Shown here in pieces: positions 55,123 through 60,791 of a DNA stretch of 64,000 nt. Position numbers and translations under genes: made by a program. Location: the IMG/VR virus record IMGVR_UViG_3300042396_000723, positions 1 through 64,000 of that record; one strand, written 5' to 3'. Below the pieces are notes generated by a model. That model did no database searches. It saw only the letters and a program-made list of their open reading frames with translations, and had not been told where the DNA came from. Each line of letters starts with the position of its first letter. The stretch's first letter is position 1. This DNA is from a virus.

Positions 55123-55719
55123 TTATCTAATCACAGGGACAGGAATAATCCCCATCAGAATGCCAGATATTTCCTGAAACATTCGCGTAGTTGTTTGCGT
55201 TGCGTCAATTATAATCCAGTTATTTTGCCTAGCCAATTCCAGATATCCGAAGCGAACCCGATCTAAAAAAAGCAAGTCTCGTTCAACCTTGTCCAGAGGT
55301 TTGTCGAGATCGCGGCGCACCGCCACCTCAACAGGACAATCGAACAAAATCACCATATCGGGATCAATTCCCCCCGTCGCCTCGTGATTTAGCTTCCTTA
55401 AATTATCTAAATTAAGCCCGTGCCCATATCCCTGATAGGCAAGTGTTGAATCCGTGTATCGATCACACAATACCAAATCAGAATCTTCTAACAAATATCT
55501 AATCGTGGGATTGTGTTTAATCCTATCCTTCAGGATTAATTTAAGCTGCTGCTCCGGCGTTAAACACCCATTCTTTAATTCAAAACGAACGTCATAATCG
55601 CAGGGTTCTCTTGTGATGTAGAACTTTAACTTTAACGCCGTGAAATGGTCGCAAAGTTTTCTAATTTGGGTTGTTTTCCCACTGCGGTCAATACCTTCAA
55701 AAGCAATCAATTTACTCAT
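55123..55719 (-). CDS. tmk: thymidylate kinase
   Basis: P-loop FEGIDRSGKTTQ, DRY-like LCDRYTDSTLAYQG and lid region; start at ATG overlapping the upstream stop. Confidence 0.8.
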   Translation of the reverse strand: MSKLIAFEGIDRSGKTTQIRKLCDHFTALKLKFYITREPCDYDVRFELKNGCLTPEQQLKLILKDRIKHNPTIRYLLEDSDLVLCDRYTDSTLAYQGYGHGLNLDNLRKLNHEATGGIDPDMVILFDCPVEVAVRRDLDKPLDKVERDLLFLDRVRFGYLELARQNNWIIIDATQTTTRMFQEISGILMGIIPVPVIR

Positions 55720-55880
55720 TTCATCCTCATCCAATTTTTAATCAAATCATCTTTAATCATACCTTGCCTTATTAATTCAATTATATATTCTCTAGCTTCC
55801 TCCAGTGTCAATATATCCACATTACGTTTAATTATCGCAAGTTTAAATTCTTGCTCCATTGTTAGCTGTGTTGGTTCCAT
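55716..55880 (-). CDS. hypothetical small protein (not in ORF track)
   Basis: 54-aa hand-translated ORF whose TGA overlaps the tmk ATG (ATGA). Confidence 0.35.
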   Translation of the reverse strand: MEPTQLTMEQEFKLAIIKRNVDILTLEEAREYIIELIRQGMIKDDLIKNWMRMK

Positions 55881-55912
55881 TTCCGTTGTTATAAGAATAT
55901 CAACACATAGAT

Positions 55913-55976
55913 TATATCAAAAAATATTTTGATTTTTATACCTCTTTAATACAGAATCAAAATATTTTTTTGATTT
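55913..55976. promoter_or_regulatory. pair of palindromic operator-like sites (ATCAAAA-N-TTTTGAT)
   Basis: ATCAAAAAATATTTTGAT and ATCAAAATATTTTTTTGAT about 45 bp apart in the divergent region between the tmk operon and the RHH gene. Confidence 0.4.
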
Positions 55977-56011
55977 ACCTGTTGCCAATTGCTCCTGATG
56001 ATGGATTTAAT

Positions 56012-56040
56012 TTGCCAATGCGTATAGTATAGAAATATAT
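56012..56040 (+). promoter_or_regulatory. sigma70-like promoter
   Basis: TTGCCA-17 nt-TATATA upstream of the 56063 start; shares ATGCGTATAKTATAGAA with the promoter at 56269. Confidence 0.4.
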
Positions 56041-56062
56041 AAATACAGCAGGAGATGGCACA

Positions 56063-56272
56063 ATGCGCGACTATATAAACAGAGTCCCCGACTATGGGGA
56101 AAAGAAAAAGCCTCACAATCTGAGTTTGACCGACACGGCGTGGCAACGGCTTGATAAATTAGCTGCGCTCTTGGGAGTGTCCAGGAGTGAGTTCGTCGAA
56201 CGCCTATCCCGTGGAGCGATTGCCCCACAAGACTTACAAGCCTTTTATAAAATTTTTTTAAAAAAAGGTTGA
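56063..56272 (+). CDS. ribbon-helix-helix (CopG-like) regulator
   Basis: LSLTDTAWQRLDKLAALLGVSRSEFVERL fits an RHH fold. Confidence 0.5.
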   Translation: MRDYINRVPDYGEKKKPHNLSLTDTAWQRLDKLAALLGVSRSEFVERLSRGAIAPQDLQAFYKIFLKKG

Positions 56273-56298
56273 CAATTTCTAAAGTATGCGTATATTAT
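56269..56298 (+). promoter_or_regulatory. sigma70-like promoter
   Basis: TTGACA-17 nt-ATATTA/TATATT upstream of the 56328 start. Confidence 0.45.
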
Positions 56299-56327
56299 AG
56301 AATTTGTAAACGCACAGAGGTAACGCC

Positions 56328-57131
56328 ATGACAACCGCAACCACAGCAAAAACCAAAACCGCAGCAAAAACTAAAACCCCTGAGTGGAAATGGAATAATA
56401 ATCTGGGGTGTGATGCCCTAAAACTCCCTACAAAGGGATGTCACGTTGACAACAGAGGAAACGTCTGGAAAGACGGCGACTCCATTGGTAACGTCACCCC
56501 GTTGCCAAATTCAGTTAAGGTGACACCCCTAGAATGGGTTGTCACCCACGAACAAAAACAGGAAGCCGTTTCCTGCGAAAAGCTACACGGGAGCTACAAA
56601 AAAAACGCGACTCCTGCCCGTCGTAAAGAATCCCCCGATGGGATGCGGGGAGGCAATTCTCAGTGGGGAGAAGTCTCTGGCCCTAAAGCCCATTTTGTGG
56701 CTGATGAGTACGAGGTGATTGTCACCTACACGGCAACTAAAGCCGTCAATCAATTCAGGGAAATTATTGAGGGAAAACCCAAGTTTCCTTCCCCCACTAC
56801 CATTGCCTATGAAACGGGCTATGGGAAAGAAACGGAATATACCGTGACCGAGTTGGCCGTCTTAGACTTGCCTACCGAAAAAGTGGAGAAGGTCTACACA
56901 GACCAACGAAAACACCTCTATGGAGAGGCAATCAAGGTTGTCAAAGAATACCTTGACAATTTAGATAAACCCGTTGAAGGGCTGTTAAAGGTCGGTGACA
57001 GCGTGATTCACCCTGTATATGGACAGGGAACTGTCACAAAGGCTTTCGGGACTAAAAACCCCACCTACCAGTCCGTTTGCGCGGATTTCCCCTGCGGGAA
57101 CAAGATGGTAGGAAAATGTGACCTGATATGA
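56328..57131 (+). CDS. hypothetical protein
   Basis: 267-aa ORF with Thr/Ala/Lys-rich N-terminus. Confidence 0.55.
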   Translation: MTTATTAKTKTAAKTKTPEWKWNNNLGCDALKLPTKGCHVDNRGNVWKDGDSIGNVTPLPNSVKVTPLEWVVTHEQKQEAVSCEKLHGSYKKNATPARRKESPDGMRGGNSQWGEVSGPKAHFVADEYEVIVTYTATKAVNQFREIIEGKPKFPSPTTIAYETGYGKETEYTVTELAVLDLPTEKVEKVYTDQRKHLYGEAIKVVKEYLDNLDKPVEGLLKVGDSVIHPVYGQGTVTKAFGTKNPTYQSVCADFPCGNKMVGKCDLI

Positions 57132-60344: not shown

Positions 60345-60791
60345 TCAGGTTTGATTGCCGTCGTTAGTGTTTGAATTACTTGCATTGGTAGATACCCCTT
60401 TTAGCTTCTTTATTATTGCAATAGCTTTTTGATGTTCTGAAGCTAAGTGTTGATATTTTTCTTGAATGTTTACTAATTGTTCAGAAAAATTAGAGTTAGT
60501 TTTCTCCTGTAGCGCGGCTATCTTTTCCCTGAGTTCGTTGTTTTCAACCTCAAGCCTGTTTAAATCATTCTCCCTATAATTAGCCTCCCTCTGAAGGCTT
60601 TTAATTTCACTTTGTAATTCAACTATAACCTTGATGTTTTTGGTATCAAAAATTCTATTGATAGCAATACCAATTACACTACTACCACCCAACAGAACGG
60701 TAATCAAACCAAATACTGATTGAATCGTTTGGTCTGTAGTAGCTGTTGTTGTATTTGATTGGAGAATAACATGAAAAAAAGACATCAACAT
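60345..60791 (-). CDS. membrane-anchored coiled-coil protein
   Basis: One TM helix then coiled coil. Confidence 0.45.
   Translation of the reverse strand: MLMSFFHVILQSNTTTATTDQTIQSVFGLITVLLGGSSVIGIAINRIFDTKNIKVIVELQSEIKSLQREANYRENDLNRLEVENNELREKIAALQEKTNSNFSEQLVNIQEKYQHLASEHQKAIAIIKKLKGVSTNASNSNTNDGNQT

What the first reader, a model, noticed from the sequence alone, without database searches (positions are those of the whole stretch)
55913..56040. Paired palindromic sites in the divergent region between the tmk operon and an RHH regulator
Two copies of ATCAAAA-N(4-5)-TTTTGAT lie about 45 bp apart, upstream of a promoter (TTGCCA-17-TATATA) for the RHH gene at 56063. This is the usual arrangement for autoregulation by a dimeric repressor. 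The promoter at 56269 shares the motif ATGCGTATAKTATAGAA with it.
Basis: partly seen in the sequence, partly recalled or inferred. Interest (0 to 1): 0.4.

Follow-up and report, generated by a model that had tools for sequence, protein, structure and literature searches.

The report
Paired palindromes at cyanophage nblA promoter
Two near-identical AT-rich palindromes really do lie between the divergent nblA–tmk operon and a small ribbon-helix-helix (RHH) regulator gene of a PaV-LD-like Planktothrix cyanophage, but they sit on the nblA promoter, and the RHH protein more likely binds the other shared motif; this is an ordinary, still untested promoter-control region.

Summary
ATCAAAA-N4-TTTTGAT (55916-55933) and ATCAAAA-N5-TTTTGAT (55956-55974) are the only such sites in the 64-kb window and in the 95-kb PaV-LD genome. 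They are mutual inverted copies sharing a 16-nt perfect repeat. The 17-mer ATGCGTATAKTATAGAA is present at 56018 and 56286.

- The left-hand operon is nblA–tmk.
- Its conserved extended -10 (TGATATAAT, 55919→55911, minus strand) abuts palindrome 1. The palindromes therefore lie at about -12..-29 and -52..-70 of the leftward promoter.
- They lie at least 38 bp upstream of the -35 proposed for the RHH gene.
- Three RHH relatives (66-84% identity) have no such palindromes and no nblA. All keep the promoter downstream of the RHH gene, with T(G/A)CGTATA-NN-ATAG(A/G)A and a TTCTA-N16-TAGAA dyad.
- At least 7 contigs are deletion variants that keep the palindromes but lack the RHH gene.
- Sister lineages carry a different single palindrome (GATTTTGTATC-N5-GATACAAAAC) at the same place.

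Best reading (confidence about 0.4): the palindromes are a lineage-specific paired control site of the nblA–tmk promoter, bound by an unidentified dimeric regulator. The RHH protein acts at the 17-mer sites. Nothing is experimentally tested. Interest is modest.

The parts
55916..55933 (.). Palindrome 1, ATCAAAA-AATA-TTTTGAT. It covers about -12..-29 of the leftward nblA promoter.
   Evidence: position relative to TGATATAAT
55956..55974 (.). Palindrome 2, ATCAAAA-TATTT-TTTTGAT. It covers about -52..-70 of the leftward promoter. Its 55955-55970 stretch is the exact reverse complement of 55919-55934.
55935..55954 (.). 20-nt core between the repeat arms. It is a decayed remnant of the GATTTTGTATC-N5-GATACAAAAC palindrome that sister lineages carry here. 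It holds 3 of the 7 variable positions of the lineage.
55911..55919 (-). Extended -10, TGATATAAT, of the nblA-tmk promoter. The inferred start is near 55904, giving a 24-nt leader.
   Evidence: It is one of only two TGnTAnnnT matches in the intergenic region, both on the minus strand (the other is TGATATTCT, 55902->55894). It is conserved as TGATATAAT or GGGTATAAT upstream of nblA in five divergently arranged relatives' lineages, and it is re-used at a second locus in L253.
55716..55880 (-). nblA (phycobilisome degradation protein), first gene of the leftward operon.
   Evidence: Pfam NblA E 6.6e-13; annotated as nblA in PaV-LD ORF022L
55123..55719 (-). tmk (thymidylate kinase). Its ATG overlaps the nblA stop (ATGA).
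   Evidence: Pfam Thymidylate_kin 8.2e-35; sequence; PaV-LD ORF021L
55982..55987 (+). TTGCCA, homologue of the TTGACA -35 of the rightward promoter in relatives. It may pair with TTTAAT at 56006-56011 (18-nt spacer).
   Evidence: alignment; sequence; inference
56012..56041 (+).
   Evidence: not returned by the consensus scan; both hexamers substituted in PaV-LD
56018..56034 (+). 17-mer ATGCGTATAGTATAGAA, candidate RHH operator at its own promoter. It is the right half of the P2 dyad.
56063..56272 (+). RHH regulator gene (PaV-LD ORF023R homologue). Its stop TGA lies inside the -35 of P2.
56269..56302 (+). P2 promoter, TTGACA-16-TATATT, with the 26-bp dyad TTCTA-N16-TAGAA (56277-56302) and the 17-mer (56286-56302). 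This is the candidate main RHH operator.
56328..57131 (+). ORF024R-like gene transcribed from P2.

Best explanation
The two palindromes are a lineage-specific paired control site of the leftward nblA-tmk promoter of a PaV-LD-like cyanophage. They are not the autoregulatory operators of the RHH gene.

Shown:
- They are two inverted copies of one 16-19-bp element.
- They are unique in the genome.
- Copy 1 fills the spacer and touches the conserved extended -10 (TGATATAAT) of the promoter that reads into nblA. Copy 2 lies 40.5 bp (about four helical turns) further upstream.
- Sister lineages have a different, strongly conserved palindrome at the same position.

Inferred: a dimeric, or dimer-of-dimers, sequence-specific DNA-binding protein occupies both copies cooperatively. 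It could be encoded by another phage gene or by the host. Bound at -12..-29, it excludes RNA polymerase from the nblA promoter. This would time or condition expression of the phycobilisome-degradation and dTMP-kinase genes.

The RHH protein most likely acts elsewhere. Its candidate sites are the T(G/A)CGTATA-NN-ATAGAA motif inside the TTCTA-N16-TAGAA dyad over the -10 of P2 (56277-56302), and its half-copy in the spacer of the RHH gene's own promoter (56018-56034). Through these it would repress itself and the downstream gene.
For: - Uniqueness and non-randomness.
- Inverted-copy structure.
- nblA and tmk identity.
- The intergenic region has only two TGnTAnnnT matches, both on the minus strand. 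TGATATAAT abuts palindrome 1; the other, TGATATTCT, lies 17 bp nearer nblA.
- TGATATAAT or GGGTATAAT is conserved upstream of nblA alleles that are only 74-77% identical, with four different right-hand neighbours. The same promoter cassette is re-used elsewhere in L253.
- The palindromes lie upstream of every candidate -35 for the RHH gene.
- RHH relatives at 84, 70 and 66% identity lack the palindromes and lack nblA. They keep the downstream promoter P2, with the RHH stop codon inside its -35. P2 identity is 71-85%, against 62-71% for coding DNA and 47-57% for flanks.
- ATGCGTAT flanks the RHH gene on both sides in the window and, with one copy inverted, in L013.
- A more distant RHH (P0024) has three AATACGTAA/ACGCAATA repeats upstream.
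- At least 7 contigs are deletion variants that keep both palindromes intact without the RHH gene on the DNA held.
Against: - No binding, transcript-start or expression data exist for this region. Literature searches found none.
- Every complete palindrome pair found outside the deletion variants is adjacent to the RHH gene, including a recombinant with a different nblA-tmk allele (L158). Linkage therefore does not exclude the RHH protein as the binder.
- Within the lineage the region is 97-100% identical. The absence of substitutions in the palindromes (0 of 7 variable sites in 37 of 145 nt, p about 0.13) is not significant.
- Half of each palindrome is ancestral sequence with another role: the T-tract plus TG of the extended -10, and the outer arm of the older palindrome. 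The perfect repeat could therefore have arisen by templated mutation without selection.
- The -35 region of the leftward promoter is poor.
- The binder is unidentified.
Confidence: 0.4

Rival explanations
1. One reading: the RHH protein binds both palindromes, as two dimers per site with the sites looped or cooperating. It thereby autoregulates its own promoter and, in passing, the divergent nblA promoter, as Arc and Mnt do in the P22 immI region.
For: - The RHH gene is the adjacent divergent gene.
- Half-site centres 11-12 bp apart suit two RHH dimers on one face (sequence; established knowledge of Arc/Mnt/CopG operators).
- The palindrome pair and the RHH gene occur together with two different nblA-tmk alleles (window type, and L158).
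- Sister lineages without the RHH gene have a different palindrome here.
Against: - The palindromes are 38-101 bp upstream of the proposed -35 and cannot occlude it.
- RHH relatives with a near-identical predicted beta-strand (KKPHNLSLTDTAW in the window, KKPHNISLTDTAW in L013) have no such site nearby. They conserve a G/C-containing motif unrelated to the palindromes.
- Deletion variants lacking the RHH gene keep the palindromes, although they are too recent for decay to be expected.
Confidence: 0.18
2. There is no dedicated binding protein. The palindromes are promoter architecture plus mutational by-product. A/T tracts act as spacer or UP-like and curved DNA for the nblA promoter. The perfect inverted repeat arose by hairpin-templated (quasi-palindrome) correction around an older palindrome.
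For: - The core is 80% A+T.
- ATTATATCAAAAAA, which includes one half of site 1, is identical in lineages that lack the palindrome. There it is simply the T-tract plus TG plus -10.
- One half of site 2 is the flank of the older palindrome (AATCAAAAATAG in L153).
- Each site therefore consists of one ancestral half plus the complement of the other site's ancestral half.
- The single strand folds into a 19-bp stem (-11.3 kcal/mol, z -5.2).
- The loop of the older palindrome is found flipped (CCCCT or AGGGG) between lineages, a sign of hairpin-mediated events.
Against: - Two independent changes were needed to make both sites palindromic and identical.
- The older palindrome at this place is strongly conserved in arms but not in loop across many contigs and at three different promoters. 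That points to a functional site here, which the pair replaces.
- The 7-nt arms end in specific G/C positions (ATC/GAT) typical of recognition half-sites.
Confidence: 0.25
3. The inverted repeat is a DNA-structure element, such as a replication origin, a cruciform, or a recombination or packaging site, rather than a transcriptional control site.
For: The element is AT-rich, unique in the genome and has a significant hairpin/cruciform potential. The region is a recombination hot spot between modules.
Against: - There are no iterons or DnaA-like boxes.
- The replication genes of PaV-LD (ORF005R initiator, ORF007R helicase) lie about 10 kb away.
- The observed breakpoints lie at the nblA start and at ATGCGTAT, not in the palindromes.
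- The position fits promoter geometry closely.
Confidence: 0.05

Closest known systems
P22 immI region (Arc and Mnt RHH repressors acting on the divergent Pant/Pmnt promoters)
   Same: It has a small phage RHH gene beside a divergent promoter region with short dyad operators, and tetramer-type half-site spacing of about 11 bp. This comparison rests on established knowledge, not on a test made here.
   Different: In P22 the operators overlap the promoters they control. Here the palindromes overlap only the promoter of the opposite operon. Comparative evidence links the RHH protein to a different motif. There is no detectable sequence relationship to Arc or Mnt.
TrcR (All0854) of Anabaena PCC 7120, an autoregulated cyanobacterial RHH repressor whose 8-bp sites (for example TGTAGTAT) overlap -10 boxes (PMC10272220)
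   Same: Both involve a cyanobacterial-world RHH repressor, an operator over the -10, and autoregulation. The window has TATAGTAT at 56023-56030 inside the 17-mer. Relatives without the RHH gene have an exact TGTAGTAT over the -10 TAGTAT of the homologous promoter.
   Different: Homology of the window protein to TrcR could not be tested, because the TrcR sequence is not held. TrcR is 111 aa (336-nt gene) and this protein is 69 aa. The best non-PaV-LD phage hit is Nodularia phage gp146 (47.5% over 40 aa, E 0.02). That protein has no counterpart in the second phage said to carry a TrcR homologue, so it is probably not that homologue. TrcR sites have nothing in common with the AT-rich palindromes.
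NtcA-type (class II, CRP-family) cyanobacterial promoters, known to drive host nblA
   Same: The target is an nblA promoter with a good -10, a poor -35 and a dyad upstream. In sister lineages the dyad centre is near -39 to -41.
   Different: There is no GTA-N8-TAC in the intergenic region. The sister-lineage palindrome is GTA-N9-TAC. The window's palindromes are centred at -20.5 and -61.
Paired cooperative operators of temperate-phage and plasmid switches (lambda OR/OL; pLS20 Rco with overlapping divergent promoters and looping, PMC4207663)
   Same: Two copies of one dyad lie about four helical turns apart in a divergent promoter region.
   Different: No repressor has been identified. PaV-LD is described as lytic although it encodes an integrase. 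There is only one pair of sites, and no distant second cluster in the genome.

Membership tests
RHH (Arc/MetJ/CopG-type) autoregulatory repressor-operator unit, with the palindromes as operator | The regulator has a ribbon-helix-helix fold. | tested here: inconclusive
   Pfam RHH_1 E 2e-4, 21.6 bits against a 20.5 cut-off. PHROG transcriptional regulator E 0.003. Weak hits to the RHH antitoxins MazE6, VapB and BrnA. The AlphaFold2 model has low confidence (pLDDT 64) and shows helices 24-37 and 41-50 plus a third helix; no strand is modelled in the monomer.
RHH (Arc/MetJ/CopG-type) autoregulatory repressor-operator unit, with the palindromes as operator | The operator overlaps or abuts the regulator's own promoter. 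| tested here: not met
   The palindromes end at 55974. Candidate -35 hexamers are at 55982-55987 and 56012-56017, and -10 candidates start at 56006 or later. The palindromes overlap the opposite (nblA) promoter instead.
RHH (Arc/MetJ/CopG-type) autoregulatory repressor-operator unit, with the palindromes as operator | Operator and regulator co-occur in relatives. | tested here: not met
   L013, L182 and L183 carry the regulator (84, 70 and 66% identity) without the palindromes. At least 7 contigs carry the palindromes without the regulator on the DNA held.
RHH (Arc/MetJ/CopG-type) autoregulatory repressor-operator unit, with the palindromes as operator | The protein binds the sites specifically. 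| not testable with these tools
   Needs EMSA or footprinting.
RHH repressor-operator unit, with the 17-mer / P2 dyad as operator | The site overlaps the core promoter and co-occurs with the regulator in relatives. | tested here: met
   The 17-mer fills 56018-56034 between TTGCCA and TATATA. The dyad 56277-56302 spans the spacer and -10 of P2. P2 with T(G/A)CGTATA-NN-ATAG(A/G)A is conserved in all four RHH lineages while the downstream genes differ.
TrcR lineage of cyanobacterial RHH regulators | Sequence homology to All0854. | not tested
There is no NCBIfam model for the lineage.
NtcA-activated promoter | GTA-N8-TAC centred near -41.5. | tested here: not met
   No GTA-N8-TAC or GT-N10-AC occurs in 55881-56062 on either strand.
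IHF site | WATCAANNNNTTR. | tested here: not met
   No exact match. AATCAAAATATTT misses only the last position. IHF is not expected in cyanobacteria (own knowledge).
Sigma-70-type extended -10 promoter (for nblA-tmk) | TGnTATAAT at a suitable distance upstream of the gene, conserved in relatives. | tested here: met
   TGATATAAT lies at 55919->55911, 30 nt before the nblA ATG. It is conserved in the L157, L161 and L166 lineages, and as GGGTATAAT in L144 and L153. The transcript start has not been measured.

The most novel reading that the evidence does not exclude
The control region in front of the phage nblA gene is a swappable sensor. Different lineages carry different palindromes: the paired ATCAAAA-N4/5-TTTTGAT sites here, and GATTTTGTATC-N5-GATACAAAAC in sister lineages, where that palindrome is re-used at three promoters. 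Under this reading the palindromes are recognised by host transcription factors. The phage would then couple phycobilisome degradation and dTMP supply to the physiological state of the Planktothrix cell, instead of running a fixed early/late programme.
Probability: 0.12. Interest if true: 0.6.

Novelty: new member of a known kind. Interest (0 to 1): 0.3.

Why it matters
nblA is the best-known auxiliary metabolic gene of freshwater cyanophages, and how phages control its expression is unknown. I found no paper analysing this promoter region. The analysis gives concrete, separable targets for experiment: a paired dyad on the nblA promoter, a distinct candidate RHH operator on two rightward promoters, and natural variants that swap or delete each part. 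If a host factor binds the nblA-side palindromes, that would show a phage wiring an auxiliary gene into host regulation. If the palindromes prove to be a simple phage repressor site or mere promoter architecture, the finding is routine.

Tried and rejected
- Within-lineage conservation. 59 loci give 6 distinct sequences. There are 7 variable sites and none falls in the palindromes, but p is about 0.13, so this is uninformative.
- Searching viral contigs for the paired pattern. Only PaV-LD-like contigs carry both sites; the other hits are single chance matches.
- Genome and metagenome scans with the RHH protein returned only near-identical copies. More distant relatives came only from the profile protein search.
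- A near-match, ATCAAAAATTCTATTGAT at 60645, lies inside a 148-aa ORF and was judged to be chance.
- Third and fourth ATGCGTAT copies in PaV-LD lie inside coding regions (ORF027L-like and the PAPS reductase gene) and were judged to be chance.
- NtcA, CRP and IHF consensus sites are absent.
- TrcR membership: the protein sequence could not be obtained. The Nodularia phage hit is probably not the published TrcR homologue.
- The AlphaFold2 model of the RHH protein was too weak (pLDDT 64) to justify a fold search.
- Rfam search of the DNA that replaces the RHH gene in the deletion variants gave nothing above threshold.
- The J Virol 2012 paper that I recall as describing nblA in PaV-LD (guessed id PMC3255931) is not held.

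Full report
**Context.** The window is a PaV-LD-like Planktothrix cyanophage. Window 54000-58000 matches Planktothrix phage PaV-LD at about 90% identity over 52% of its length. The 481-nt stretch 55860-56340 is 98% identical to PaV-LD and 100% identical to an IMG/VR contig.

The genes around the finding are as follows:
- tmk, 55123-55719, minus strand. Pfam Thymidylate_kin, E 8e-35.
- nblA, 55716-55880, minus strand. Pfam NblA, E 6.6e-13. Its stop overlaps the tmk ATG.
- A 69-aa RHH-like gene, 56063-56272, plus strand. Pfam RHH_1 scores 21.6 bits, just above the 20.5 cut-off.
- An ORF024R-like gene, 56328-57131, plus strand.

**The observation.** Both palindromes are present exactly as described.
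- They are the only matches to ATCAAAA-N3-6-TTTTGAT in the window (0.01 expected). They are also the only ones in the whole 95-kb PaV-LD genome.
- They are reverse complements of each other: 55919-55934 and 55955-55970 form a 16-nt perfect inverted repeat.
- The region is 72.5% A+T, so I shuffled the 182-nt intergenic region alone. Two or more 7-nt-arm palindromes turn up in 3.1% of shuffles. A 16-nt inverted repeat turned up in none of 2000.
- The 17-mer ATGCGTATAKTATAGAA is at 56018 and 56286.
- Small corrections: the sites are 40 bp apart start to start. The TTGCCA/TATATA pair has an 18-nt spacer and fails the consensus scan. Both of its hexamers carry a substitution in PaV-LD.

**Which promoter do the palindromes belong to?** On the minus strand the sequence reads ...ATCAAAATATTTTTTGATATAATCTATG..., followed after 30 nt by the nblA ATG.
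- TGATATAAT (55919→55911) is a perfect extended -10. It is one of only two TGnTAnnnT matches in the intergenic region, and both are on the minus strand.
- With a start near 55904, palindrome 1 covers -12..-29 (spacer plus the edge of the -10). Palindrome 2 covers -52..-70.
- For the RHH gene, every candidate -35 (55982 or 56012) lies downstream of both palindromes.

**Relatives of the nblA side.** I collected nblA loci with alleles 74-77% identical to the window's, which have four different right-hand neighbours.
- All divergently arranged lineages keep TTTTTTGATATAAT (L157, L161, L166) or GGGTATAAT (L144, L153) at the corresponding place.
- None of them has the paired palindromes or the RHH gene.
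- Instead they carry a single palindrome, GATTTTGTATC-N5-GATACAAAAC, centred near -39. Its 5-nt loop occurs in both orientations (CCCCT or AGGGG).
- The same palindrome, at the same 21-nt distance from a TTGACA, also precedes a PcfJ-like gene. It is part of a bidirectional promoter cassette that is re-used at a third locus in L253.
- The window has no copy of it. Only a decayed remnant remains in the 20 nt between the two palindromes.
- Half of each window palindrome is ancestral sequence. ATTATATCAAAAAA is the T-tract, TG and -10 seen in relatives. AATCAAAA is the outer flank of the older palindrome. The other half of each is the complement of the other site's ancestral half.

The pair is therefore a lineage-specific replacement of an older, evidently functional dyad in the control region of the nblA promoter.

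**Relatives of the RHH side.** A profile search found RHH relatives at 84% (L013), 70% (L182) and 66% (L183) identity.
- None is next to nblA and none has the palindromes.
- All four lineages keep the promoter immediately downstream of the RHH gene. The RHH stop codon lies inside the -35 TTGAC(A/G). They also share an invariant block T(G/A)CGTATA-NN-ATAG(A/G)A and an outer dyad TTCTA-N16-TAGAA.
- This 34-nt promoter is 71-85% identical to the window's. The figure is 62-71% for the coding DNA and 47-57% for the flanks. The gene downstream differs in each lineage.
- In the window, the right half of this dyad is the 17-mer.
- In L013 the core ATGCGTAT also lies upstream of the RHH gene, inverted.
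- A more distant RHH (P0024) has three AATACGTAA/ACGCAATA repeats upstream.

The RHH gene and the P2 dyad thus travel together as a module, which makes the 17-mer/P2 dyad the best candidate RHH operator. The motif has no resemblance to the palindromes.

**Natural variants.** At least seven contigs (the L147 class) are identical to the window through nblA, both palindromes and TTGCCAATGCGTAT. They then jump into the middle of an ORF027L-like gene that lies about 1.7 kb to the right in RHH-containing genomes. This is a deletion of the RHH gene through ORF026. It shows that phages lacking the RHH gene persist with the palindromes intact. The variants are too recent for this to say anything about selection.

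Conversely, L158 combines palindromes and RHH gene with a very different nblA-tmk allele. That same NblA protein sits behind the older palindrome in L157, L159 and L160. The palindromes are therefore physically linked to the RHH side in the recombinants seen. With only about 130 bp between them, this is weak evidence for a functional link.

**Mechanism.** My best reading is given at a confidence of 0.4.
- A dimeric or tetrameric regulator binds the two copies cooperatively; 40.5 bp is about four helical turns.
- From -12..-29 it blocks RNA polymerase at the nblA-tmk promoter.
- The RHH protein represses P2 and its own promoter through the 17-mer sites.
- Shown: the anatomy, uniqueness, promoter position and comparative patterns. 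Inferred: binding, cooperativity, direction of regulation and the identity of the binder.

The main rivals are these:
- No protein binds, and the pair is A/T-rich promoter architecture made symmetric by hairpin-templated mutation (0.25). The single strand folds into a 19-bp stem with z = -5.2.
- The pair is an origin or structural element (0.05).

**Comparison with known systems.** The arrangement works like the divergent operator regions of P22 immI or other phage and plasmid switches, but the membership tests for 'RHH autoregulatory operator' fail for the palindromes on position and on co-occurrence.

The closest characterised cyanobacterial analogue for the RHH/17-mer part is TrcR of Anabaena. 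TrcR is an autoregulated RHH repressor whose 8-bp sites (for example TGTAGTAT) overlap -10 boxes (PMC10272220). The window has TATAGTAT inside the 17-mer. RHH-less relatives have an exact TGTAGTAT over their -10. Homology to TrcR could not be tested. NtcA, CRP and IHF consensus sites are absent.

**Verdict.** This is a real, non-random, operator-like pair of dyads in an ordinary kind of place. I found no published analysis of this region.

Noticed in passing
Its stop overlaps the tmk start (ATGA at 55716-55719).
   Followed up: yes
window 56269-56274; L013 1034-1039; L182 737-742; L183 461-466: The stop codon TGA of the RHH gene lies inside the -35 hexamer TTGAC(A/G) of the next promoter in all four RHH lineages. 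The regulator gene and this promoter form one inseparable module, while the gene downstream differs.
   Followed up: yes
L013 1-780: At least eight copies of GAGAATTGAAAC (some with one change) are spread over the 750 nt upstream of the RHH homologue, which is iteron-like. None occurs in the window.
   Followed up: partly
L144/L153/L157/L161/L166 about 2370-2400; L007 4977; L253 2390 and 5304: The palindrome GATTTTGTATC-N5-GATACAAA(A/T)C is conserved, with its 5-nt loop found in both orientations (CCCCT or AGGGG). It is part of a bidirectional promoter cassette re-used at three different loci in PaV-LD-like phages. It is absent from the window.
   Followed up: partly
L253 5130-5290 (minus strand): At the third copy of the cassette, the TGATATAAT side runs about 85 nt into a terminator-like hairpin (AAAAGCCCTCC...GGAGGGCTT) with no ORF. 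This may be a small RNA.
   Followed up: no
L147, L148, L150, L152, L156, L042, L064, L097, L125: These are deletion variants in which P1's ATGCGTAT is joined to the middle of an ORF027L-like gene. The RHH gene, ORF024R and the following genes are lost. They were found in several independent metagenomes.
   Followed up: yes
L158 / L009 compared with L157, L159, L160: This is a mosaic. The same NblA protein (P0007; 77% to the window, with tmk only 47%) sits behind the paired palindromes plus RHH gene in one contig and behind the older palindrome plus a PcfJ-like gene in others. The recombination point is at the start of nblA.
   Followed up: partly
L144/L153/L166, about 60 nt upstream of the ORF024R-like gene; window 56023-56030: TGTAGTAT overlaps the -10 TAGTAT in these relatives. 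This is the sequence reported as a TrcR (Anabaena RHH repressor) site at the trn operon. The window has TATAGTAT. It may be host TrcR control of phage promoters, or coincidence.
   Followed up: partly
window 55982-56019: TTGCCAAT is directly repeated 30 nt apart (55982 and 56012). Relative to sister lineages, the window has about 20 extra nt between the ancestral -35 and -10 of the rightward promoter, so two tandem weak promoters are possible.
   Followed up: partly
window 56333-56372: An 18-nt tandem repeat at the 5' end of the ORF024R-like gene encodes a low-complexity TAKTKT-rich N-terminus. Similar N-termini occur on other small genes placed behind this promoter type in relatives (for example L253 5411).
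   Followed up: no
L009 / L012, equivalent of window 56046-56052: A 7-nt deletion with nearby substitutions lies between the proposed RHH promoter and the ribosome-binding site in some variants. A GGAGG is retained.
   Followed up: no
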